Source: Patescibacteria group bacterium
GTDB lineage: Bacteria; Patescibacteriota; Minisyncoccia; Minisyncoccales; Staskawiczbacteraceae
DNA length: 64,000 nucleotides
Direction: 5' to 3'
Assembly (NCBI GenBank): GCA_038065715.1
Contig: JBBTQL010000007.1
Span: forward strand, 49,643 to 113,642
Shown: positions 40,501-55,900 of the stretch, piece after piece
How positions within the stretch are numbered: position 1 is the first letter of the stretch
Layout of the letters: each line of letters begins with the position of its first letter
The notes under the pieces: model-generated
Databases searched by the model: none
What the model was told of the DNA's origin: nothing
The model's input: only the letters and a program-made list of their open reading frames with translations
Program-made: the position numbers and the translations under genes

Positions 40501-40530
40501 AAAAACTACTCCGCTCGGAGTAGTTTTATT
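40501..40530 (+). terminator. Rho-independent terminator closing the ribosomal super-operon
   Basis: AAAAACTACTCC-GCTC-GGAGTAGTTTTATTTT. Confidence 0.6.
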
Positions 40531-40567
40531 TTGACTTAGATGTGGTAAAATTATATGATAAATCAAT

Positions 40568-41428
40568 ATGTTGGACGCAACAATAATAAAACAAAATAAA
40601 AAAGTTGATGATGCTGTATCTCGCGAGCTGTATTACGATAAGCCCGGATTTAAATTATACAATGCGAATTGTTTAGATGTTCTTGCAGAACTTCCGGAAA
40701 ACTCCGTTGATATGATTTTTGCGGATCCTCCTTATTTTTTATCAAATGGGGGATTTAGTTTGCATGCTGGCAAGAGAGTAAGCGTAGATAAGGGTCAATG
40801 GGATGTAAGTAATGGACTAAAAAAAGATTTTGATTTTCATCTTGAATGGATAAAAGCTTGCCATAGAGTTTTAAAGCCCCACGGAACGATTTGGATTAGT
40901 GGAACCTATCATTCAATTTATCAATGTGGATTTGCTTTGCTGGTCAATAAGTTCCACATATTAAACGATATTACGTGGTTCAAGCCCAATGCATCGCCAA
41001 ATTTAAGTTGTCGATTTTTTACGGCAAGTCATGAAACTTTGCTTTGGGCTAGGAAGGACAAAAATGCAAAACACATTTTTAATTACGATTTGATGAAAAA
41101 TGGAAGTTGGCCGGAAGACCAACTGAAAAAACCAAACCTTCAAATGCGTTCAGTTTGGGCTATTGGCACTCCAAAAACTGTTGAAAAAAAGTTTGGCAAA
41201 CATCCGACACAAAAGCCGGAAGATTTATTAAAAAGGATTGTACTTGCAAGCACAAATAAAGGAGATTTAGTTCTAGATCCTTTTACCGGAAGCTCAACCA
41301 CTGGGGTTGCCTCTTATCTTTTTGGCAGACATTTTATTGGGATTGATACGGAACCAAAATTTCTAGACTTATCAATAAAAAGGTTTGAGGAGTTAGATCG
41401 TAATTTAAAGAGTAAATTTACTTTTTAA
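40568..41428 (+). CDS. Beta-class N6-adenine/N4-cytosine DNA methyltransferase
   Basis: Motif IV IFADPPYF precedes motif I LDPFTGSSTTG. HPTQKPEDLL. Confidence 0.9.
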   Translation: MLDATIIKQNKKVDDAVSRELYYDKPGFKLYNANCLDVLAELPENSVDMIFADPPYFLSNGGFSLHAGKRVSVDKGQWDVSNGLKKDFDFHLEWIKACHRVLKPHGTIWISGTYHSIYQCGFALLVNKFHILNDITWFKPNASPNLSCRFFTASHETLLWARKDKNAKHIFNYDLMKNGSWPEDQLKKPNLQMRSVWAIGTPKTVEKKFGKHPTQKPEDLLKRIVLASTNKGDLVLDPFTGSSTTGVASYLFGRHFIGIDTEPKFLDLSIKRFEELDRNLKSKFTF

Positions 41429-41432
41429 AACC

Positions 41433-41993
41433 ATGGATGAACAACAGCTAAAAACATACATGACATTTCAGAGAGATGGCCAATCAAAGATGCCTCTCGC
41501 CGTTTTTGAAGTAAATGGAAGCTATGTTGTCGGCGTTTATCAAGGTACTTTGAGTGATTTTGATATTCTGATAAAATATAGACAAAAAATAGATGGAACA
41601 TGGTCAAGAATTCGGACTCCAAAACATATTCACTGGGCTGCTGACATTTTAATTAAATTACACGAGGATAAAATTAAAACACAACAGTTCCTCGATTTTT
41701 TATTAGGTATATGGGCCACGACTGTGCCAGTTAGAAATCCGAAACAACAAAGTGATATTTTAAATATAAAATCATTGCTAAAAGATAGCCAAAATATGAT
41801 TTTAGAGTATGAGAGCTTGAGCAATAAAGGAGAATATAGTATTAAATTTTTAATATTACTTGCTAAATTATTAATGATTCAAGAAAAGACGAATATGGAA
41901 GCGGCCTTTATGTTTAAAAATTTATTGGATGCGCTCCGCAACAAAGGAGATATTTTTTCTGTTGTATCCATAGCGTCCCATACCGGACGATAA
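41433..41993 (+). CDS. Hypothetical protein embedded between the MTase and nuclease genes
   Basis: 186-aa ORF starting 4 nt after the MTase stop. No catalytic motif recognised. Confidence 0.5.
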   Translation: MDEQQLKTYMTFQRDGQSKMPLAVFEVNGSYVVGVYQGTLSDFDILIKYRQKIDGTWSRIRTPKHIHWAADILIKLHEDKIKTQQFLDFLLGIWATTVPVRNPKQQSDILNIKSLLKDSQNMILEYESLSNKGEYSIKFLILLAKLLMIQEKTNMEAAFMFKNLLDALRNKGDIFSVVSIASHTGR

Positions 41994-42003
41994 TCAAAAA
42001 TTT

Positions 42004-42624
42004 ATGAAAATTATAACTCGCGCGGTTGCCATAAGAAATTTAAGAAAATATGTGGGCCAGGATTTAAGAAAGTTGGCTTTAGAGCATGGAATTACAACTT
42101 ATGAAACCGGAAAGCAAAACAAGGGCTGGAAAGGGCTTGTTTTAGAAAGGCTGGCAGGATTAGAAACAAATATTTCAAAGGCTCCAAACGGGCTAACTTA
42201 TGAATTAAAATCGGTTGCTTTTCACCATGTTAAAAATAATCTTGTGCCGAAAGAAACCATGGCGATAACAATGATAAATCCAGAAGAATTAAAAGCCCAT
42301 TCTTTTTTTGAAAGTCATTGCTGGGCAAAACTTAAAACCATTGTGTTTTGTGCGGTTGGATGGAATGGCATAAATTCTACAGAAGCAAAATTACTTAAAG
42401 TTGCGAGCTTAGATTTTGCCGAAGACGACGAATTAATAAAAGAAATAAAAGCAGATTATGATTTTATCCGCGAAAAACTAATTACAAAAGGTTTTAAATC
42501 CTTAACTGGTGCAGACGGAAAATGGATACAAGCGAGAACAAAAGGTGCCGGACACGGATCGACAAGCCGGGCTTTTTATGCTAGAACAGGTTTAGTGAAA
42601 AAAATTTTTGAGATAGCATCATAA
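42004..42624 (+). CDS. MutH/Sau3AI-family endonuclease-like protein
   Basis: ...NKGWKGLVLERLAG......YELKSV... resembles MutH KGWIG.LLE..LG......D....ELK (from memory). The Asp position appears to be Asn (APNGLTYELK). Confidence 0.65.
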   Translation: MKIITRAVAIRNLRKYVGQDLRKLALEHGITTYETGKQNKGWKGLVLERLAGLETNISKAPNGLTYELKSVAFHHVKNNLVPKETMAITMINPEELKAHSFFESHCWAKLKTIVFCAVGWNGINSTEAKLLKVASLDFAEDDELIKEIKADYDFIREKLITKGFKSLTGADGKWIQARTKGAGHGSTSRAFYARTGLVKKIFEIAS

Positions 42625-42642
42625 AAATTAATCGAAACCATT

Positions 42643-43356
42643 ATGGAAATTAATCAAAAAGAAACCGTTGCACAATCTACAAAATTAACGGCGGCAGATG
42701 TTCTAGAAAATTCCGTAAGAACGGTTGGGACGTTTAAGCCAAAATTTAACCCTAGTGCAGGAAAAATGTTTTCAGATGAATTAAATGTATTAGGAACAGC
42801 ATTTTGGCTGAAGGAATATGGAGTGTTGATTACTTGCGCTCATGTAGTTGCGGAAATGATTAAATTGCCTTTGGAATCCGCTGGTTTGTTAGTCGTCGGT
42901 AATCACGGTAAATATCAAAGAGCTATTGTGGGTATGGTTGACTATTTACACGATTTGGCTGTTCTTAATTTGGTTGACTCTAACACTGGTATTCTTATAC
43001 CAGATTTTATTACTTCTATTGATTCTGAAAAGGGCTTACTTCTTTCAAATGATTATCCAAAAACTGGTACGAGAGTTGCCTGGGCAGGATACCCGCTGGG
43101 GAATCAATTGCTAAATCAAATTCATAATCCAACCTATTCAGAGGGAGTTGTTGGGATATCTAAAAGAGATAGTTCCCTGCGAAAAGATATACAAATATCG
43201 GGCGTTGTCGTTGGAGGATATAGTGGTTCACCAGTAATCAATATAGAAAACAATAAACTGATCGGTGTGGTCTCTAATGGTCCGCAAAATTCAGGTATAT
43301 TTATGGCTGTTTCTTGGGAGCATGTTAAGGCCTTAGCAGTGTCAGCTAAATCATAG
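42643..43356 (+). CDS. Cytoplasmic trypsin-like (S1/S1C) serine protease
   Basis: Catalytic triad contexts TCAHVV (His), LHDLAVL (Asp), GGYSGSPV (Ser). No signal peptide. Confidence 0.8.
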   Translation: MEINQKETVAQSTKLTAADVLENSVRTVGTFKPKFNPSAGKMFSDELNVLGTAFWLKEYGVLITCAHVVAEMIKLPLESAGLLVVGNHGKYQRAIVGMVDYLHDLAVLNLVDSNTGILIPDFITSIDSEKGLLLSNDYPKTGTRVAWAGYPLGNQLLNQIHNPTYSEGVVGISKRDSSLRKDIQISGVVVGGYSGSPVINIENNKLIGVVSNGPQNSGIFMAVSWEHVKALAVSAKS

Positions 43357-43378
43357 AAAAATAAAATTATTTACAAAT

Positions 43379-43639
43379 ATGGAAGATACAAAAAATTGTC
43401 AAAAAATATTCGATGAATATATTAGTTTAAATAATCAGATTGTAGCAAGAGATGTTGGGCCTAAGGGGGAAATTGTCGCAACGCCGATTAACGACATTGA
43501 AAAACTATTCGGTCTAAGAAAAAAGGTTTATAGTTGTTTACATGAATTATCTGATGAGCAACTAATAGAACTATACGGTCATAAAGACCTGGAGGAAGCA
43601 CAGAAAATTTTATTAGAACGAAAATTAAAAATTAATTGA
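43379..43639 (+). CDS. Small acidic helical hypothetical protein
   Basis: 86-aa ORF, 22 nt after the protease gene. Confidence 0.45.
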   Translation: MEDTKNCQKIFDEYISLNNQIVARDVGPKGEIVATPINDIEKLFGLRKKVYSCLHELSDEQLIELYGHKDLEEAQKILLERKLKIN

Positions 43640-43670
43640 GAAATGAATTTTGTAGGTTTTAAATGTTGTT

Positions 43671-44063
43671 GTGGGACATATTATTATGAAATTTCCATTT
43701 GAAGGAACATCGGTTAATTCTTTAGCTAAACAGGTAAGCAGCAAAAGTGCTGTAAATCCTTCTCTTTGGGCGTGCCTTGTAGTTTCCCTGCCCCTCTTTT
43801 TGCTTGCAAGCAAAACCGCCGGGATTTTATCATTCTGTTTTTTCGGGATTGCAATTTTGCCAGTTGTTGCATTTCTAATAAGTTATATATATCTTATCTT
43901 CAAGAATCCAAAATATCTTAGATCGGAAGAATACCAACTTAGAGCCGAAGCGATGAATTTAATTGGTGATAAAGATAATCCGCTTCATGCCGATGCAGAC
44001 GATATTGTTTCTGTAATAAATAATCCAATGCTTCCATCGCCTAACAAGGAAAAAAATGAGTAA
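43671..44063 (+). CDS. Small two-TM membrane protein (ATG alternative at 43686)
   Basis: Two hydrophobic helices (LWACLVVSLPLFLLA; ILSFCFFGIAILPVVAFLISYIYLI), then a charged tail. Confidence 0.5.
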   Translation: MGHIIMKFPFEGTSVNSLAKQVSSKSAVNPSLWACLVVSLPLFLLASKTAGILSFCFFGIAILPVVAFLISYIYLIFKNPKYLRSEEYQLRAEAMNLIGDKDNPLHADADDIVSVINNPMLPSPNKEKNE

Positions 44064-44343
44064 ACTATATTTTATTACCTTCAAAGCTGGTTTAAACTAT
44101 AATGCTATTAATTTTCATAGCTACATTACTGCTTTGTATGAAAAAAAATGGATTACTGATTGGTGGCATTATACTGATAATACCTACATCGTTGCTTCAT
44201 CTTACGACGTTAATCAGTTGTATAGTGCTGCTGTTCCCGGTATGTCGAATATGGTCTACGTTCTCTTTATTGAAGTAAATCCAAATAATTCACAGGGATG
44301 GTTGCCTCCGGACGCATGGACATGGCTACAGAAGTATAAGTAA
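44056..44343 (+). CDS. Small Trp-rich hypothetical protein
   Basis: 95-aa ORF overlapping the previous gene by 8 nt. ...WITDWWHYTDNTYIVAS...GWLPPDAWTWLQKY. Confidence 0.45.
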   Translation: MSKLYFITFKAGLNYNAINFHSYITALYEKKWITDWWHYTDNTYIVASSYDVNQLYSAAVPGMSNMVYVLFIEVNPNNSQGWLPPDAWTWLQKYK

Positions 44344-44348
44344 TGGGC

Positions 44349-44376
44349 TTGACTCGTTAAACTATCGCGGTATAAT
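44349..44376 (+). promoter_or_regulatory. Sigma70-like promoter for the orphan sRNA
   Basis: TTGACT(44349-54)-16 nt-TATAAT(44371-76). Confidence 0.5.
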
Positions 44377-44382
44377 AGGTAA

Positions 44383-44500
44383 TGTAGTGACTGTTGGTTT
44401 CGAAGAATAGAAATTCCTGGTCTCAACTGCGGTGAGAAACATTCTCGCTTAAGTGGGCAAAACGTTAATTACAAAAAAAATCCCCTCCCGGGGATTTTTT
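44383..44500 (+). ncRNA. Candidate ~118-nt structured sRNA in the accessory island
   Basis: No ORF. Hairpins GGTGAGAA-ACA-TTCTCGCT and GTTGG...CTCAAC. 5' GTAAT / 3' ATTAC. Terminator ATCCCC-TCCC-GGGGATTTTTT (44480-44500). Confidence 0.45.
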
Positions 44501-44575
44501 AATTTACTTTTTTTACTATTTTGCTATAATATCAATTAAGGTCTTTTCCAAAGGTCTCTTTAAAGGGAGATTAAT

Positions 44576-44794
44576 ATGGGATACTGGGATGCAACAGATC
44601 AAATTATAAATGCAAACGGGGGACAAAACCCAATTTGCCCAGCTTGTCATCAGGAAATGATTCCAATTGATGACCATGGAAGATTTTCCTGTGCCTGCAA
44701 GCCGTTGTTTGACCGCGATATCGGATATAGATTACCAACACCAATTCCTATGGTAATTGATAGAATTTTAGACATTGAAAGGCATCGGCCATAA
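44576..44794 (+). CDS. Small zinc-ribbon-like protein (SD-led)
   Basis: CPACHQEM...FSCAC. GGGAG 7 nt upstream of ATG. Confidence 0.5.
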   Translation: MGYWDATDQIINANGGQNPICPACHQEMIPIDDHGRFSCACKPLFDRDIGYRLPTPIPMVIDRILDIERHRP

Positions 44795-44873
44795 GTATTT
44801 TCAACCGTATGGTTTTACCCAGCGGTCTTTTTTTATCCCTTGCAAATATTTTTTGAAATGATAAAATAATAGC

Positions 44874-45569
44874 ATGTTAAAAGAACTTATTGACGAGTTT
44901 TACGAGGAACAGCAAAAAAATAAAGAGCAGACCAAGTTTTATATTACAGACGCCGGCAAATGCCCGCGCGCTGTTTTTTTTAAATTTAAAAATGCGCCAA
45001 GAGAGCCAATGGATGCGCGTATTTTAAGAATTTTTGAGCACGGCGAACACATACACAGAAATATTTTTAATGTTTTGTATCGCCTTAGAATTGGGGTAAC
45101 AACAGAAATTTCAATTCCATCGCAAGAAATAATTTCTGGCAGAGCCGACGCAATTTTATGCATTAACAACGAAAATTATGTGTTAGACATTAAAAGTATG
45201 AACAGCATGATTTTCAGAAATTTAAATCAGCCAAAAGAAGAAAATATTTACCAGATTCAGCTTTACTTGCATTATTTTAACATTAAAAAAGGCATTCTGC
45301 TTTACATAGACAAAGACCAGCAAAACATTAAAGAGTTTGTTGTGGACTATGATGCAGAGCTTGTAAAAAGTTTGCTTGATAAATTTTACAGCTTAAAAAC
45401 CAAAGTAGAAGAAAATATTGTTCCAGAAAGAATGCAAGATTATCCAAAAAACTGGCAATGTCAGTATTGCCAATTTAAAGACATTTGCAAAACGGCAAAC
45501 GGCCAGGAAATGAAGTGGCAGGAGTTTAAAGATAAAATTGAGTCGCAAAACACCAATCAATCATCATAA
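44874..45569 (+). CDS. Stand-alone Cas4/RecB-like PD-(D/E)XK nuclease with 4-Cys cluster
   Basis: N-terminal Cys (DAGKCPRAVFF). Motif II GRADAIL. Motif III LDIKS. QxxxY (YQIQLYLHY). C-terminal CQYCQFKDIC. Confidence 0.7.
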   Translation: MLKELIDEFYEEQQKNKEQTKFYITDAGKCPRAVFFKFKNAPREPMDARILRIFEHGEHIHRNIFNVLYRLRIGVTTEISIPSQEIISGRADAILCINNENYVLDIKSMNSMIFRNLNQPKEENIYQIQLYLHYFNIKKGILLYIDKDQQNIKEFVVDYDAELVKSLLDKFYSLKTKVEENIVPERMQDYPKNWQCQYCQFKDICKTANGQEMKWQEFKDKIESQNTNQSS

Positions 45570-45601
45570 AAATAGCGGGTGTCCGACACCCGCTATTTTT
45601 G
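45568..45601. terminator. Bidirectional terminator between convergent genes
   Basis: AAAAATAGCGGGTGT-CCG-ACACCCGCTATTTTT. Confidence 0.7.
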
Positions 45602-46735
45602 TTATTGAGTGATTTTTTCTGAAGAAAGGAGAGTGTTACCTGTCAATATATACAATTTTCCGTCAGATTGTTTAAAAAATATTTTAGGATTTTTGATTTC
45701 TAAGGAATTGCCGCTTGTTAAAGTTGCGGTTTGCGGCAGGGTAAACGTATTTATATTGCCCCTTTCGTCAATTTCTGAAATTACTATTTTATTTCCAAGG
45801 TTAAAAATTAAATAATTGTCGTTTAGCCAAAAGCTGTCGCCAATTTTTTCTGAAAATCTGTTTAAAAATATTTGGTCGGTTGGAGAATTGAGGTAAGAAA
45901 ATAGAATTTCATAATCGTTATAAAAAAGCAGTTTTTGCCCGTCCGGAGAAATTTTTAAATTATTTACCGGGCTATAAAAATTTTTAAAATCGTTTGTCGT
46001 TTTTGAAAAAAACAAAAGGCTATTATCATTTTTGAGAAAGATATTTTGCTGGACTGTTATTATTTTGTAAGTATTTTTTATATTTATACTTAGGGCAGTT
46101 TGGCTTAATTTTTGCGTATTGCCCCCGCTTTGGTCAGAGCTGTATAAAAAACCGTTGGCAGAAAGCCAAACTATATTGTTGTTTAATACTGTGCTTGCTA
46201 AAACATTTTTTAAAACGGGAATAGTTTTATCGGCTTTCGTTATATTATTATTTTCTGGCGCGTTAGAATAATACAAGTTGCCATTTTTAATAATATATTT
46301 TTCTTGTTCTTTTGGTTCAATAAAAGGGGATTGGGTTTTGTCTGTTAAAATTTCAAAAAGAATTTGTTCTTTAAATAAAACAACGTGTTCTAATTTTGCC
46401 ACTTCTTTCTCTTTTACATCCAAGGTTTTTTGGTATGAAAAATAGCCGTTTTTTTTTACCAAGACATTATGCGACTTTGGCAGAAGGTTTTGCATAAACA
46501 CAAACCCAGAAAGCATGTTTGTTTTTCCGGCAAGCTTTGAATTTATATAAATCTCGGCTGGCTCTGGCCAGACTTTAACATAAATGCCGCCTGTTGCCAC
46601 TAATTTTTTGTTTTCAAAATCAACCCTGTATCCAAGGGAATAGGCAACTATGTAGGGCGTTATGATAAAAAACAAAACAGCGCAGGTGATTAGTATTACA
46701 AAACGAGTTCTTTTCTGCATATATGTTTTAAGCAT
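45602..46735 (-). CDS. Membrane-anchored PEGA-domain protein with beta-rich C-terminal region
   Basis: N-terminal TM. VKVWPEPAEIYINSKLAGKT...HNVLVKKNGYFSYQKTLDV (PEGA-like). Confidence 0.55.
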   Translation of the reverse strand: MLKTYMQKRTRFVILITCAVLFFIITPYIVAYSLGYRVDFENKKLVATGGIYVKVWPEPAEIYINSKLAGKTNMLSGFVFMQNLLPKSHNVLVKKNGYFSYQKTLDVKEKEVAKLEHVVLFKEQILFEILTDKTQSPFIEPKEQEKYIIKNGNLYYSNAPENNNITKADKTIPVLKNVLASTVLNNNIVWLSANGFLYSSDQSGGNTQKLSQTALSINIKNTYKIITVQQNIFLKNDNSLLFFSKTTNDFKNFYSPVNNLKISPDGQKLLFYNDYEILFSYLNSPTDQIFLNRFSEKIGDSFWLNDNYLIFNLGNKIVISEIDERGNINTFTLPQTATLTSGNSLEIKNPKIFFKQSDGKLYILTGNTLLSSEKITQ

Positions 46736-49910: not shown

Positions 49911-52900
49911 ATGAAAAATAAAAAAAATCAATTTTTCAAGGCTAAACTTTTTAGCCGATTCCTAACAAAATCAGCGAATAATTTTTTATTTAAGCCAACT
50001 ATAATAATGTTGGTTTTTTTGTTTGTTTTTCAGCCAATGGCGTCCGTGTTTGCGCAGGAAGCGCAGGAGGTAAACGTTATTGTTCCTGAAAGCCCTGTAA
50101 TAGGCGAGATAGGACAAATTCCCGCAATAAGCAATGTTGAGCCAACCCAGACTATTAGCCCTATAACAGAATTAAGTCCTAGTGAAATTCCTCTTGTTCT
50201 ATCGCCAGAGCCTCAAGCCCCAACTATAGAGAGCGTTCCTATCGATTCGCCATTAGAGCAAAATACAGAACAAAATGTTGCAGAAAAAGAGCCTGTAGCT
50301 GCTCAAGCATTAAATCAGAACGAAGAAAACAAACAGCCAAGTTCCAGTTTGCAATTAACTCAAAAATTGCCTGAAATAGATAAAAACACAGGCGCTTTAA
50401 CATATAATTATTCTATTGCTGTTCCGCCCGGCAGAAACGGTTTTCAGCCAGAAATTGGGTTGTCATATAACAGCAATTCAAATGAACAAAACAGCATTGC
50501 AGGATATGGCTGGACTATAAATATTCCATATATCAAGCGGTTAAATAAAGCGGGTTCTGACAAACTTTATACTTCAGGAGCCGCCAGTTATTTTTATTCT
50601 TCGCTTGACGGCGAGCTGACATCAGCTGGCGGAGTTTTATATGTTCCCAAAATAGAAAACGGCAATTTTAATAAATACACTTTTGAAAATAATCAATGGA
50701 TTGTTGTTTTTAAAAACGGCACACAATATAAATTTGGGTATAATGATAATTCAAAGCAAAACGACCCAGCCAATCCAGACAACGTTTATAAATGGATGCT
50801 GCAAGAAATAAGGGACACAAACGATAATTTTATTTCTTATGAGTATTTTAAAGACAGGGGGCAGATTTATCCTTTGTCAATAAAATATACTGGCAACGGC
50901 TCAACAGACGGCATTTTTGAGGCTGATTTTCAGAGAATTGACAGGACAGACAATTTTGCCAATTATTCAACTGGTTTTAGCGTAAAGTCTAATTATTTAA
51001 TAGGTGAAATTACAGCAAACATAAATAATGACTGGACAAATAAATATGTTTTGAATTACGAAAAAAGCCAAGACGCAAACAAATCTTTATTAAAATCAAT
51101 AACAACATCAGGCAAAAATAGTAGCGGAAATATTGTTTCTTTAGCGCCATCAAACTTTAGTTATCAAAATTCAACTGCTGGTTTCACGCCCTCAAACACT
51201 TCGTGGAATATTCCATCGCCCCCAGAAGGCGATTGGAATTTACTCACAAGATCTCCTCAATTTGCCGACCTTAACGGAGACGGTCTGCAAGACTTAGTAA
51301 TAGTTGCCCATATTCCAATTGTAATAGGAACTTATCACGGCTCTCGCCTACAAGATTATCAATATTTAAATACAGGCTCAGGCTGGCTGCAAACAACAGC
51401 ATGGAACTTTCCAGGTGTGCCAGACGGCGAATCTTTATGGCAATGGCCAACTATTCCGCCGATGTTCACCGACCTTAACGGAGATGGCTTAACAGACCTT
51501 GTTTTGGTTGCCAGCCACTATAATTATGGAAATATTTATAAAGACTATCAATATCTCAACACCGGAAACGGCTGGGCGCCAAATTTCACATGGCAGCTTC
51601 CAACTCTGCCAGAAGGAGAATGGAATTTTATTTCAATGCCTCCGCAATTTGTGGATCTCAACGGAGATGGCCTGCCAGACATTTCAGCTTTAACAAGAGT
51701 TACTTTTTATGAGGATAACCGTTCTTGGAGGGAAGACAGAAATTATCAATACCTCAACACCGGAAGCGGCTGGGCGCTGGTCTCCGCCTGGAAACTTCCA
51801 ACCCTGCCAGATGGCGAATCTATGTGGCAGTGGCCTACCATACCTCCGCAGTTTACAGACCTCAACGGAGACGGTTTAACAGACCTTGTTTTAGTTGCCA
51901 GCCACTATAATTACGGACATATTTATAAAGACTATGAATATCTCAACACAGGCTCTGGTTGGACGCCAAACTCCACATGGCAACTGCCAGAGGTGGGCTG
52001 GGATTTTATTTTAATGCCCCCGCGGTTTGTGGATCTTAATTCTGACAACCTGCCAGACATTGCAATAATAGTTCGCAGGTGTGTGGAAATTGATAACAGA
52101 ACTTCTTGCGAGTATAAAGACTATCAATATCTTAATAATGGTTCTGGCTGGACACAGATTCAAACGTGGAAATTTCCAGATGTGCCAGTCGGCGAAGATA
52201 CATGGCAATATCCAGGCAGGCCACCGATATTTACAGACCTTAATGGAGACGGTTTACCCGACCTTGTTTTAATTGCCAGGCACTATAATTATGGAAATTA
52301 CCCAAAAGACTATGAATATCTTAACGGCGGGTTAAAACAGGATTTGTTAAGCCAGATAAATTATCCGCAGGGCGGCAATACAAAAGTTGATTATAAGCCC
52401 TCAACTCAATATATAGACGACTCTGGGGTTTTGTTAAATAAATCACCATATCCTATATTTACTGTTTTACAAATTATAAACAGCGATGGCCAAGGCAGTG
52501 AAATAAAATTATCATATAGGTACGCGGGCTCGCATTATTACTACAACAACCCTTTTGACAGGGAATTTGCAGGATACGATTTGGTTGAGCAAACAGATTC
52601 TATGGGAAACACAGCCAAAACTTATTTTCATACAGCTAACGACAGCAATTCATCTGCCGGAGAATTTGAAGACAATTATTTTAAAATTGGCAAGCCGTAT
52701 AGAATAGAGCAGTATGACAACAATAATAAACTTTATCAAACAACAATAAATAAATGGGGAAGCGCTAATTTAGGAAGCAATGCCGGTTTTGTAAAACTGC
52801 TTCAAACAATAGAACAAAATTTTGACCCTGACTTAACTCATAAAGACAAGGCAGAAAGCTATGAATATGACAACAATAATGGGAATCAAACTCAAAAAAT

Positions 52901-55900
52901 AGAATGGGGCGAAGTTTTGGCAAATGATGACGGTAGTTTTTTAGATATTGGAAATGACAAGCGTATTGCTAATATTAGTTATGCTGTTGGCGGAATTTCC
53001 AATTTCCAATTTTCAATTTCCAATCAATTTATCAATGACCAAAACGGAACTAAAATTAAAGAAGCCAAATATTACTACGACGGCCTGCCGCTTGGCCAGT
53101 TAACCTTGGGAAATCAAACTAAACAGGAAAATTGGATAAAAAACACAGATTACGCCAGCTCTGAAAATTCATATAATAATTTTGGCCTGCTCACACAAAC
53201 AAAAGATGCAAATAACAATGCCACAAATTTTTCATACGAAGCAAATAATATTTATCCAGCCTCTGTTATAAATGCCAAAAATCAAACAACGCAATATGTT
53301 TATAATTACGCTATTGGTAAACCAGCTCAAATAACCAATGCCAACGGAAATATATTTAAAAACACTTATGACGGTTTTGGCAGAATTTTAAAAACAGAAC
53401 AGCCAGACCAAAATAACCCTTCAACATTAGTTGTAAAAACATCTTATGTTTACAACGACAGTCCCTTGGCTGTGAGCGTTCAGCAAACAGATTATTTAGA
53501 CGGCTCAAACTCTGTAAACAACTATAATTATTATGACGGTCTTTCAAGAACTATACAGACAAAAAAATCTGCTGAAAATAGCAACTTTGAAACAAAAGAT
53601 TATATTTATGATAATAGGGGAAATTTACAAAAAGAATCTTTGCCTTATTTCTCTCAAGGTTCGGCAAAAACAAGCTCAACTTCAGAAGCTAATCTTTTTG
53701 CAAACTATGTTTATGACGCTTTAAATAGAAAAACAAGTGTTATAAATGTAGTTGGAGCAACAAGCTATAACTATAAAAATTGGCAGGCAATAATTACAGA
53801 TGTTAATGGAAACAAAAAAGACTATATTTATGACGCTTACGGCAATTTAACGCAGGTTTTAGAGCATAATGGGCAAGACACTTATATAACTGCTTATACT
53901 TATGACGGAGCAGGGAATTTAATTTTAATTACAGATGCTTTGGGAAATGTCCGCAATTTTGTTTATGACGGTTTAGGCAGAAGATTATCTGCCCAAGATT
54001 TGCATAATCCTGCAGATTCGGTTTTTGGAACTTTTACTTATTCTTATGATAATGCAGGAAATCTAATTAGTTTAACCGACCCTAAAAACCAGACAATAAA
54101 TTATGCTTACGACGCTTTAAACAGAAAAATAACTGAAAATTATACAGGAAAAACTGGCATAGAAGTTATATTAAACTATGATTATTGTTTAAACGGCAAA
54201 GGTTTATTGTGCGACAGCGTTTCAACAAGTCAAACAGAGCAATATGAATATTCAGCCTTGGGAAATGTAATAAAGCAAACAAAAATTATTGGAGATAATA
54301 TTTTAACAACCCAATTTAATTATGACAGGCAAGGAAGTCAAATTTTTATTGCAAACCCAGACAGCTCGCAAGTTAAATATGATTTTAATTCAGCCGGCTT
54401 AATTGAAAAAGTGTGGCGAAAAGAATCTGGCGACGCAGCATTTACTGTTGTAGCCAGCAACCTTGATTATTCGCCAACAGAACAAATTGCCAGTATTTCT
54501 TTAGCAAACGGAGCTCAAACAACAAACACTTATGACGCAAACCAGCTTTACCGCTTAACCCGTAAATTATCTTATGCAAACAACGTTAATTTGCAGGATA
54601 TTTTTTACCAGTATGACAGCGTGGGCAATATAAAACAAACAACTGACAATTCAAATACAGCCGCCAAAAAAATAGTTTATTATAATTATGATAATTTATA
54701 CAGATTAATTTCGGCTGTGGCCAGCAATACGTCAGACAATCAAGATTATACTCAAAATTTTACTTATGACGCTTTAGGCAATATATTATCTCAAAAATTA
54801 AACGAAAAAACTCTTTCTTATAACTACGAAGGCAATTTAGATTTATCTTACGCAAACCCAGATGCGGCAACAAAAATTGTTGAAAGCGGAATTAAGCCAG
54901 TATTAATTATTTCAAATTTTGTTTCTTCGCCAGCAACAATTAAACCGGGGGAGCAAGCAGTTTTGTCGTGGGCTGTTTCAAACGGAACTCCAACAAGTTT
55001 AACCATAGATAACGGAATCGGCTCGGTTTTGGGCTTGAATTTTAAAATAGTAAATCCAACCGCAACAACAACTTACACAATAACAGCTGAAAACAGCAAC
55101 GGAACAACCACAAAATCAATTACTATAACAGTTGCCCAACAACAGGCCGCAATTTTCACAAAAACTTTGGGCAATATAATTGACTCAGCAATTCCTGCTG
55201 CCCCAGTTATTTCAACCTTTAAAGCCTCGCTAACCACTATAACTCAGGGAGGCTCAAGCTCTTTATCATGGACTTTGTCTGGCGGAGCTCCAGCAAGTTT
55301 AATAATAGATAACGGAGTAGGCAATGTTTTAGGAAAAACAAAAATTACTGTAAAGCCATTATTCACCACAACATACACAATAACCGCAACAAACAGCGCA
55401 GGCGAGGCAACTAAATCTGTAACAATAACTGTGAAGCCTCATTCTTTGGCTCCGGTAATTTCAAGTTTTACCGCAAACCCGACCTCTATTGAAAAAGGAA
55501 AATATGCAACCTTGTCGTGGAAGATTACAGGCTCAATTAAACCCACAAGTTTAACCATAAACAATGGCGTGGGTTCGGTTTTAAATACCACTTCAAAAAG
55601 AATTACACCTAATGCAACAGCCAGCTATACGCTTACCGCAACAAACAGATATGGCGCGGCGTTTAAAACCGTAAAAATAACTGTAAATGATGTACCGCCG
55701 CCTCCGCCTCCTCCTCCTCCGCCTCCACCGCCAGCAGAAGAAGCCCCAGTTATTAATTCTTTCACAGCTGACAATACAACAATTATTCAAGGACAATCTG
55801 CAATATTATCATGGACTTTGTCTGGCGGAACTGCTACAACCCTAAGTATAAACAACGGAGTTGGCAGTGTTTTAGGAAAAACAAGCGTTATTGTAAATCC

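What the first reader, a model, noticed from the sequence alone, without database searches (positions are those of the whole stretch)
40531..42624. Three-gene restriction-modification-like module with an unknown middle gene and a MutH-like nuclease
Seen: this module sits right after the terminator that closes the ribosomal super-operon. It consists of a beta-class MTase (DPPY before FTGSSTTG), a 186-aa protein with no recognisable motif starting 4 nt after the MTase stop, and a 206-aa MutH/Sau3AI-like protein 10 nt further on. Established: MutH-fold enzymes act at GATC-type sites, and Sau3AI-type restriction enzymes are duplicated MutH folds. Inference: the single-domain MutH-like protein may need the unknown protein as a partner for specificity, dimerisation or activation. 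That would make this a non-standard two-subunit R system. The four downstream genes are co-directional with gaps of 31 nt or less, so the unit may be larger than an R-M system.
Basis: partly seen in the sequence, partly recalled or inferred. Interest (0 to 1): 0.55.

Follow-up and report, generated by a model that had tools for sequence, protein, structure and literature searches.

The report
GATC restriction module with orphan-fold gene
This is a mobile restriction-modification operon, probably GATC-specific, from a Patescibacteria genome; its unknown middle gene is not a partner of the MutH-like nuclease but an optional cassette from a widespread, unannotated protein family that travels only with GATC-type methylase operons and has no recognisable fold.

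Summary
They are a beta-class N6-adenine MTase (40568-41428), a 186-aa protein with no family match (41433-41993), and a 206-aa MutH-fold protein (42004-42624).

The proposed two-subunit nuclease is not supported. Among 76 informative close relatives of the MutH-like gene, 62 sit directly after the same MTase with no ORF2. Only 8 carry ORF2, and 6 carry a different small gene at that junction. A syntenic relative (L011) lacks ORF2 cleanly.

ORF2 belongs to a large family (1171 clusters at 90% identity, 218 species in many phyla). It is almost always next to a Dam-class or DpnA-like MTase. In 41 of 80 loci the operon also holds a DpnII-family GATC endonuclease, in 8 a MutH-like gene, and in about 26 only an MTase. 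It is also found fused to both MTase classes.

The AlphaFold model is very confident (pLDDT 95) but matches nothing in the PDB or BFVD. Ten polar residues are invariant in every context.

Best reading: this is a GATC R-M operon carrying a second, structurally novel GATC-directed nuclease. That function is inferred, not shown. The downstream genes are an unrelated island.

The parts
40502..40527 (+). Terminator-like hairpin (11-bp stem followed by a T run) that closes the ribosomal-protein operon upstream of the module
   Evidence: scan; sequence
40531..40559 (+). Sigma-70-like promoter candidate (TTGACT-17-TATGAT), 9 nt upstream of the MTase ATG. This is a consensus match only.
   Evidence: the number of such sites in the region is not above the shuffle expectation, so the evidence is weak
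40568..41428 (+). Beta-class N6-adenine DNA methyltransferase (DPPY before FxGxG), DpnA/M.MboIC-like. Its inferred target is GATC.
   Evidence: PF01555 E 2e-57. PADLOC MTase_II E 2e-96. It is 47% identical, TRD included, to the beta-class MTase of a Dam|DpnII|ORF2|M operon. It is 66-92% identical to the MTases that partner MutH-like or ORF2 genes elsewhere.
41433..41993 (+). ORF2: a member of an unannotated family that accompanies GATC-type MTase operons. It has an N-terminal beta meander (residues 12-61) and a C-terminal helical bundle (65-182). D44 Y49 R61 H65 H67 W68 D71 K75 E151 K152 are invariant. It is a candidate novel nuclease and an optional cassette in this operon.
   Evidence: family and conservation; confident model, no fold match; context; absent from syntenic L011
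42004..42624 (+). Single-domain MutH/Sau3AI-fold endonuclease homologue and the usual REase partner of this MTase in Patescibacteria. E48, E67 and K69 are present, but Asn62 replaces the canonical Asp (MutH D70).
   Evidence: sequence; PN-x4-ELK conserved; fold TM 0.8 to MutH; M|MutH pairs

Best explanation
The core is a mobile two-gene type II restriction-modification operon that is common in Patescibacteria. A DpnA-like beta-class MTase methylates the adenine of GATC. A single-domain MutH-fold endonuclease attacks unmethylated GATC.

In this genome a third gene, ORF2, has been inserted as a cassette between the two. ORF2 is a member of a widespread, unannotated family that is a dedicated satellite of GATC methylation operons. 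Its most likely role is a second GATC-directed nuclease of unrecognised fold, held in check by the same methylation. On this reading the window carries one MTase and two unrelated restriction nucleases for one site. That redundancy would harden the system against phage inhibitors aimed at a single nuclease, or extend it to DNA forms the other enzyme handles poorly.

Shown here: gene identities; the cassette-like presence/absence of ORF2; its linkage to GATC-type operons; its conservation; and the lack of any fold match.

Inferred: the GATC specificity of this particular MTase; nuclease activity of ORF2; activity of the MutH-like protein despite its Asp-to-Asn change.
For: (1) The same MTase family (66-92% identity, with the two partner types interleaved) is followed by the MutH-like gene, by ORF2, or by both.

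(2) ORF2 relatives occur in 218 GTDB species from Patescibacteria, Bacteroidota, Spirochaetes, Aquificota, Chloroflexota, Zetaproteobacteria and archaea. Only 2 of the full-length ORF2 loci examined have no MTase anywhere in the fetched locus, and in most the MTase is the adjacent gene, often overlapping.

(3) In 41 of 80 loci the operon is Dam-class MTase | DpnII-family REase (PF04556, E 1e-96) | ORF2 | beta-class MTase. This ties the family to GATC.

(4) About 26 loci hold only MTase + ORF2 set between housekeeping genes (gltX, PFK, GGT, AIR synthase, GATase). The pair therefore moves as a self-contained two-gene module, as M+R pairs do.

(5) ORF2 is fused to a Dam-class MTase (P0334) and to a beta-class MTase (L020).

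(6) G38 D44 Y49 R61 P63 H65 H67 W68 D71 K75 E151 K152 N154 are retained in all, or all but one, of 83 loci whatever the context. This Asp/Glu/His/Lys set looks like an active site.

(7) GATC is depleted in the window (57 observed against 101 expected), while GANTC is not.

(8) The MutH-like model has TM 0.80-0.82 to MutH, and PADLOC classes it as a type II REase.
Against: No nuclease fold or motif could be assigned to ORF2. Foldseek against the PDB and BFVD gave nothing (best E 0.04-0.2, TM 0.31 or below). The same method recovered MutH at 20% identity for the neighbouring gene. hhalign against DpnII, MutH and a shallow GIY-YIG profile gave probabilities below 1%.

More than half of ORF2 loci already contain a classical GATC REase. 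This is odd for a merely redundant enzyme and fits an accessory role equally well.

An ORF2-domain-TIR fusion sits with no MTase nearby, and 2 of the full-length ORF2 loci examined have no MTase in the fetched locus.

The MutH-like family has Asn in place of the metal-binding Asp, so its activity is not assured.

GATC depletion is shared with five other 4-mer palindromes. Specificity was never measured.
Confidence: 0.5

Rival explanations
1. ORF2 is a non-catalytic GATC reader or accessory protein. It would bind unmethylated or hemimethylated GATC, or single-stranded DNA, and modulate whichever MTase or REase is present. Possible roles are timing of establishment in a new host, targeting of the DpnA-like MTase, or sensing of foreign DNA.
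For: ORF2 co-occurs with two unrelated REase families and three MTase families. What these share is the DNA site, not a protein surface. Most ORF2 loci already encode a REase. One relative is fused to a TIR effector domain without an adjacent MTase, which is the architecture of a sensor-effector protein. No nuclease fold was detected.
Against: Invariant acidic and histidine residues (D44, D71, E151, H65, H67) are typical of catalysis rather than simple DNA binding. About 26 loci are stand-alone MTase+ORF2 pairs between housekeeping genes, which under this rival would be an orphan MTase with an accessory that has nothing to modulate. No HTH or other DNA-binding family was matched consistently.
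Confidence: 0.27
2. One reading: ORF2 is an obligatory subunit or activator (a MutL-like role) of the single-domain MutH-like nuclease, and the two form a heteromeric restriction enzyme.
For: ORF2 and a MutH-like gene are adjacent in several distant lineages and in different gene orders: M|ORF2|MutH in Patescibacteria, Dam|ORF2|MutH|M in Dehalococcoidia and Ignavibacteria, and ORF2|M|MutH in Zetaproteobacteria. There is also a Dam|ORF2-long|M(-)|WYL|MutH-like integrative element. E. coli MutH does need an activator (established knowledge). The MutH-like family lacks the canonical Asp.
Against: 82% (62 of 76) of close MutH-like relatives lack ORF2, and 90% of ORF2 loci lack a MutH-like gene. 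ORF2 more often accompanies DpnII-type enzymes. The syntenic relative L011 has M|MutH only. ORF2's invariant residues are the same with and without a MutH-like neighbour.
Confidence: 0.05
3. The MTase and the MutH-like protein are not a restriction system. They would be a Dam/MutH-type strand-discrimination module for methyl-directed mismatch repair, with ORF2 as an unrelated passenger.
For: The protein is a single-domain, full-length MutH homologue (TM 0.8 to MutH). It is unusually conserved: every one of the 119 other listed relatives is 84-95% identical across named candidate phyla.
Against: The pair sits at different chromosomal positions in different lineages, next to resolvase, Rep or integrase genes in some. 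The junction accepts variable cassettes, which is the behaviour of a mobile element. No MutS or MutL gene was found in the window or in any of about 170 loci (sensitivity is limited, and the rest of the genomes was not examined). The tight, often overlapping M-nuclease operon is the R-M arrangement; in Gammaproteobacteria dam and mutH are unlinked (established knowledge).
Confidence: 0.08

Closest known systems
DpnII / MboI / LlaDCHI type II R-M systems (GATC; Dam-class MTase + DpnA-like beta-class MTase + DpnII-family REase)
   Same: The window's MTase is a DpnA/M.MboIC-like beta-class N6-adenine enzyme, 47% identical to the beta-class MTase of operons that contain a DpnII-family REase. ORF2 relatives sit inside exactly these operons in 41 of 80 loci.
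   Different: The window has no Dam-class MTase and no DpnII-family REase. Its nuclease is MutH-fold. The classical DpnII, MboI and LlaDCHI operons are described with three genes and no ORF2-like fourth gene (PMC4471560 for DpnII; otherwise my own knowledge).
Sau3AI / LlaKR2I / DpnIII (GATC REases with tandem MutH-like domains, paired with C5-cytosine MTases)
   Same: The MutH fold (TM 0.74 to the Sau3AI N-domain; NCBIfam Sau3AI model E 1e-13) and the presumed GATC target.
   Different: The protein has one domain of 206 aa instead of a catalytic plus an allosteric domain (about 470-490 aa). Its partner is an N6-adenine MTase rather than a C5 MTase, so the nuclease must be m6A-sensitive like MutH. 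Asn replaces the PD aspartate.
E. coli MutH (methyl-directed mismatch-repair nickase)
   Same: Same length class, same fold, alignment over 180 residues, and the E-x-K motif plus Glu56 equivalent are conserved. Action is presumably blocked by Gm6ATC.
   Different: It is encoded in an operon with its MTase on a mobile module. No MutS/MutL linkage was seen. The motif is PN-x4-ELK instead of QD-x6-ELK.
Type II REases not assigned to any known REase fold in the 2008 classification (56 characterised, 521 predicted; PMC2441816), and novel-fold REases such as R.PabI (half-pipe; my own knowledge)
   Same: ORF2 is a small protein tightly linked to MTases, with no detectable sequence or fold similarity to known nucleases. 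This is how orphan REases typically look.
   Different: No activity has been shown. Unlike ordinary REases, ORF2 often shares its operon with another REase of the same presumed specificity.

Membership tests
Type II restriction-modification system | DNA MTase with an AdoMet-binding motif (FxGxG) and a catalytic (D/N/S)PP(Y/F) motif | tested here: met
   FADPPYF and DPFTGSSTTG in the beta-class order; PF01555 E 2e-57; PADLOC MTase_II E 2e-96
Type II restriction-modification system | Adjacent gene for an endonuclease of a recognised REase family | tested here: met
   The MutH/Sau3AI-family protein lies in the same operon. The M|MutH pair recurs in 62 of 76 related loci.
Type II restriction-modification system | Nuclease and MTase recognise the same sequence (here GATC) and methylation blocks cleavage | not testable with these tools
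   Only indirect evidence is available: MutH-family membership, 47% identity to the MTase of DpnII-type operons, and GATC depletion to 0.56.
MutH/Sau3AI endonuclease family (PF02976) | MutH fold across the whole protein | tested here: met
   Pfam 38.8 bits against a cut-off of 23; PDB MutH E 6e-6; Foldseek TM 0.80-0.82 to 2azo/2aor
MutH/Sau3AI endonuclease family (PF02976) | Catalytic D-(X)n-E-X-K triad (MutH D70, E77, K79) plus Glu56 | tested here: not met
   E48, E67 and K69 are present, but the Asp position is Asn62. The PN-x4-ELK motif is invariant in close relatives and in relatives of about 45% identity. Activity is therefore uncertain.
Methyl-directed mismatch repair (Dam-MutH-MutL-MutS) | MutS and MutL present in the genome and MutH dependent on them | tested here: inconclusive
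   No MutS/MutL was found in the window or in about 170 loci by phmmer with E. coli queries. Whole genomes were not available.
Heteromeric (two-subunit) type II REase | The two subunit genes always co-occur | tested here: not met
   ORF2 is absent from 68 of 76 MutH-like loci. A MutH-like gene is absent from about 72 of 80 ORF2 loci.
Known nuclease folds for ORF2 (PD-(D/E)XK, HNH, GIY-YIG, PLD, half-pipe) | Sequence-profile or structural similarity to a member | tested here: not met
R-M controller (C) protein for ORF2 | Small (about 70-100 aa) HTH_3-type DNA-binding protein upstream of the REase gene | tested here: not met
   ORF2 is 186 aa and no HTH family was matched. The model shows a beta meander plus a helical bundle.

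The most novel reading that the evidence does not exclude
ORF2 founds a new structural class of site-specific DNA enzyme dedicated to GATC: a restriction nuclease or nickase with a fold not represented in the PDB. It spreads by inserting into pre-existing GATC R-M operons of any type (DpnII-type, MutH-type, or a lone MTase), where the host's methylation already protects the chromosome. It would in effect be a 'hitch-hiking' restriction gene.
Probability: 0.4. Interest if true: 0.75.

Novelty: new variant of a known kind. Interest (0 to 1): 0.6.

Why it matters
Only a handful of catalytic folds are known for restriction enzymes, and GATC is the best-studied methylation site in bacteria.

Here is a conserved, compact protein of 186 aa, confidently modelled, in more than 200 species. 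It accompanies GATC methylases of three families, and restriction nucleases of two families in more than half of its loci. It has no name, no Pfam family and no structural relative. That makes it a concrete, testable candidate for a new nuclease fold or a new kind of methylation-state reader.

The result also shows that the very common M|MutH-like operon of Patescibacteria has a cassette slot between its two genes. That bears on how these tiny-genome bacteria diversify their defences.

Finally, it corrects a tempting but wrong reading: adjacency in this window does not mean ORF2 and the MutH-like protein form a complex.

Tried and rejected
1. A weak NTP_transf_2 hit (E 0.064) and a by-eye hG[GS]...DxD nucleotidyltransferase motif in ORF2. 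Rejected: only 1 of 60 family members hits it, and G28/S29 and D42 are not conserved.

2. A GIY-YIG reading by eye (Y36...Y49...R61-x3-H65...E...N154). Not supported: no PF01541 hit, only 2 of 60 members give a faint DUF123 hit, Foldseek finds no GIY-YIG structure, and hhalign against a GIY-YIG profile gives probability 0.05%. That profile was shallow because the I-TevI search returned only 9 proteins, so this test is weak.

3. ORF2 as a remote homologue of DpnII, MutH, the Sau3AI C-domain or the MTases. hhalign probabilities were below 1% and no Foldseek match appeared.

4. ORF2 in plasmids or phages. No tblastn match was found.

5. DpnD (the unknown gene of the DpnI cassette) as a relative. 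This could not be tested because no sequence was available; ORF2 matched no Pfam family at all, which gives no support.

6. A recurrent partner gene downstream of MTase+ORF2-only loci. No similarity was found among 30 neighbours, and the ones examined are housekeeping genes.

7. att-like repeats around ORF2 or the downstream island. Nothing convincing was found.

8. Literature searches for an ORF2-like gene in GATC systems or for MutH-like R-M in the CPR. Nothing relevant was found.

10. Co-folding of ORF2 with the MutH-like protein. The tools do not offer this.
Full report
**Observation.**
- The first is a 286-aa MTase (40568-41428).
- The second is a 186-aa ORF (41433-41993) that starts 4 nt after the MTase stop codon.
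- The third is a 206-aa ORF (42004-42624) that starts 10 nt further on.

A terminator-like hairpin (40502-40527) and a promoter-like site (40531-40559) separate the module from rpsI. The next terminator-like hairpin with a long, bidirectional stem downstream is at 44475-44500; a weaker 7-bp candidate lies at 42986-43003.

The MTase has DPPY before FTGSSTTG, which is the beta-class motif order. It matches PF01555 (E 2e-57) and a PADLOC type II MTase model (E 2e-96).

The third protein is a genuine MutH homologue.
- Pfam PF02976 scores above its cut-off, and the NCBIfam Sau3AI and MutH models score E 1e-13.
- E. coli MutH aligns over 180 residues.
- An AF2 model (pLDDT 83.6) superposes on MutH with TM 0.80-0.82 and on the Sau3AI N-domain with TM 0.74.

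ORF2 matches nothing in Pfam, NCBIfam, PADLOC, PHROGs or PDB sequences, either alone or as a 60-member family.

**Is ORF2 the partner of the MutH-like protein? No.**
The MutH-like protein has 3890 relatives. All 119 other listed relatives are 84-95% identical and come from many Patescibacteria lineages.

In every context I looked up, this gene directly follows the same MTase family, without ORF2. The chromosomal sites differ, and some lie next to resolvase or Rep genes.

A scan of metagenome contigs gave 78 loci of close relatives, of which 76 were informative:
- 62 are M|MutH with nothing in between.
- 8 are M|ORF2|MutH.
- 6 have a different small gene in the slot. These belong to two recurrent families of about 125 and about 135 aa, plus others.

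Locus L011 is syntenic with the window: ribosomal operon, MTase (91.5% identical), MutH-like gene, then a PEGA-domain gene on the minus strand. Its DNA aligns up to window position 41416 and resumes at 42002. ORF2 is therefore a clean gene-sized presence/absence difference.

The same comparison shows that window 42632-45749 is absent from L011. This stretch carries a trypsin-like peptidase, four small ORFs and a Cas4-like exonuclease. Downstream genes also differ in all other loci, so the unit does not extend downstream.

**What is ORF2?**
It is a real and widespread family.
- It has 1171 clusters at 90% identity, nearly all 175-195 aa.
- It has 243 clusters at 50% identity.
- Relatives occur in 218 GTDB species: Patescibacteria, Bacteroidota (including cultured Flavobacterium buctense, Epilithonimonas bovis and Arcicella rosea), Treponema, Aquificota, Chloroflexota, Zetaproteobacteria, Clostridia and archaea.
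- RefSeq calls these proteins hypothetical.
- No relative was found in the plasmid or phage collections.

I gene-mapped the 80 genomic loci.
- ORF2 is almost always next to a DNA MTase, often with overlapping stop and start codons. The MTase is the DpnA-like beta-class family, a Dam-class (D12) enzyme, or a 460-520-aa beta-class enzyme.
- In 41 loci the neighbourhood also holds a DpnII-family REase (PF04556, E about 1e-96). The typical order is Dam | DpnII | ORF2 | beta-MTase, which is the MboI arrangement plus ORF2.
- In 8 loci there is a MutH-like gene, in several different gene orders.
- In about 26 loci there is only MTase + ORF2. Where I examined the flanks, these pairs are set between housekeeping genes: gltX, phosphofructokinase, gamma-glutamyltranspeptidase, AIR synthase and an amidotransferase.
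- Two loci, on short contigs, show no MTase.

Fusion proteins also exist:
- Dam-class MTase fused to ORF2 (P0334).
- Beta-class MTase fused to ORF2 (L020).
- One divergent ORF2 domain fused to a TIR domain, with no MTase nearby (P0368).

The MTases that precede ORF2 and those that precede the MutH-like gene are the same family, and the two sets interleave. For example, 89% identity links an ORF2-linked MTase to a MutH-linked one. The window's MTase is 47% identical, TRD included, to the beta-class MTase of a DpnII-containing operon.

All of this ties ORF2 to GATC methylation rather than to any particular protein partner.

**Structure and conservation of ORF2.**
AF2 with a 60-sequence alignment gives pLDDT 95 and pTM 0.90. 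The model has a beta meander (residues 12-61) followed by a nine-helix bundle (65-182).

Profile-profile comparison with DpnII, MutH, both MTase classes and a shallow GIY-YIG profile gave probabilities below 1%.

G38, D44, Y49, R61, P63, H65, H67, W68, D71, K75, E151, K152 and N154 are retained in all, or all but one, of 83 loci. This holds whether ORF2 sits with DpnII (41 loci), with a MutH-like gene (14), with an MTase only (26) or alone (2). ORF2 therefore does the same thing in all contexts. A constellation of three acidic residues, two histidines and two lysines points to catalysis.

**Interpretation.**
The two-gene M|MutH-like operon is a mobile type II R-M unit of a known kind. PADLOC models would classify it that way.

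Its target is very probably GATC. The evidence is indirect: MutH/Sau3AI family membership, the DPPY N6-adenine MTase related to DpnA-type enzymes, and GATC depletion to 0.56 of expectation while GANTC is not depleted. The depletion evidence is weakened because five other palindromes are depleted as well.

One caveat concerns the MutH-like protein. The whole subfamily has PN-x4-ELK where MutH and Sau3AI have (Q/P)D-x6-ELK, so Asn62 replaces the metal-binding Asp. The motif is conserved down to about 45% identity, so the protein is under selection. Its chemistry may nevertheless differ from that of MutH.

For ORF2, I commit to a second GATC-directed nuclease of unrecognised fold, with confidence of about one half. 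The reasons are:
- It forms self-contained two-gene modules with three different MTase families.
- It is fused to MTases of two classes.
- It is almost never found without an MTase.
- It conserves an active-site-like residue set.

The main rival is a non-catalytic GATC reader or accessory protein. That rival is favoured by three points: ORF2 frequently shares an operon with a classical REase, one relative is fused to TIR, and no nuclease fold can be assigned.

**Novelty.**
The M+MutH-like pair is a known kind of system. The three-gene form, and ORF2 itself, are new. I found no annotation, no family model, no structure and no literature for ORF2. The 2008 classification of type II REases mentions MboI/DpnII, Sau3AI and CviAI as unrelated GATC-specific families, and notes that many REases remain unassigned to any fold (PMC2441816).

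I rate the finding a new variant of a known kind, with a substantial chance that ORF2 is a new enzyme class.

Noticed in passing
L113:2573-2956, L145:3612-4004, L147:2132-2509, L166:3617-3997; L133:3631-3996, L143:2975-3391, L015:5568-5996; L157:1223-1519; L173:528-1085: The junction between the MTase and the MutH-like gene in Patescibacteria relatives is a cassette slot. Besides ORF2 it holds two other recurrent small-gene families. One is about 125-130 aa with a motif reading LYRG..SWT.. and no Pfam hit. The other is 121-142 aa with a faint ART-PolyVal ADP-ribosyltransferase hit (E 0.047). There is also a 98-aa ORF with a DGQHR motif and a 185-aa ORF. Some loci carry two cassettes (M | xB | ORF2 | MutH).
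   Followed up: partly
window 42632-45749: A 3.1-kb island that is absent from the syntenic relative L011. It carries a Trypsin_2 peptidase (42643-43356; PADLOC RT-Protease_XI protease part, E 2e-16), ORFs of 86, 130 (phrog_27377), 95 (phrog_1090) and 72 aa (the last a zinc ribbon), and a Cas4-like PD-(D/E)XK exonuclease (44874-45569; phrog_1706, E 1.5e-32). It looks like a phage- or mobile-element-derived remnant or defence islet. L011 has a 147-aa cupin-like gene at this position instead.
   Followed up: partly
window 42004-42624 (residue 62) and all relatives seen: The MutH-like subfamily has Asn where MutH (D70) and Sau3AI have the catalytic, metal-binding Asp, and the spacer to the E-x-K motif is two residues shorter. 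This is invariant in the relatives examined, which range from 41% to 95% identity. No explanation has been tested.
   Followed up: partly
L175:4408-5574 (P0368): A divergent ORF2-family domain is fused to a C-terminal TIR domain (PF13676, E 1.6e-17). No DNA MTase lies on the 7.3-kb contig. H65 and W68 are replaced in this copy. It may be a sensor-effector derivative of the family.
   Followed up: partly
L176:332-8717 (P0250 locus): A long (336-aa) form of ORF2 with an extra N-terminal domain lies on an integrative element with an integrase and RepA_N. It sits between a Dam-class MTase and a divergently oriented beta-class MTase, followed by a WYL regulator and a weak MutH-like gene. Other long forms (about 280 aa) carry a Cys-rich N-terminus, and P0241 has a degenerate duplication of the N-terminal half.
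   Followed up: no
window, whole 64 kb: Several 4-mer palindromes are strongly under-represented against a second-order Markov expectation: CTAG 0.41, TCGA 0.44, GTAC 0.49, GGCC 0.53, GATC 0.56 and ACGT 0.61. This suggests exposure to several R-M specificities.
   Followed up: no
window 49911-58049: A giant 2712-aa ORF lies in a stretch with raised G+C (0.40-0.45 against about 0.34) and negative GC skew. It was not analysed.
   Followed up: no
L003-L006 (P0113 loci), upstream of M|ORF2: A diversity-generating-retroelement-like pair (a bAvd accessory protein and an RVT_1 reverse transcriptase) lies about 4 kb upstream of the M|ORF2 pair in a Parcubacteria lineage. It is probably unrelated.
   Followed up: no
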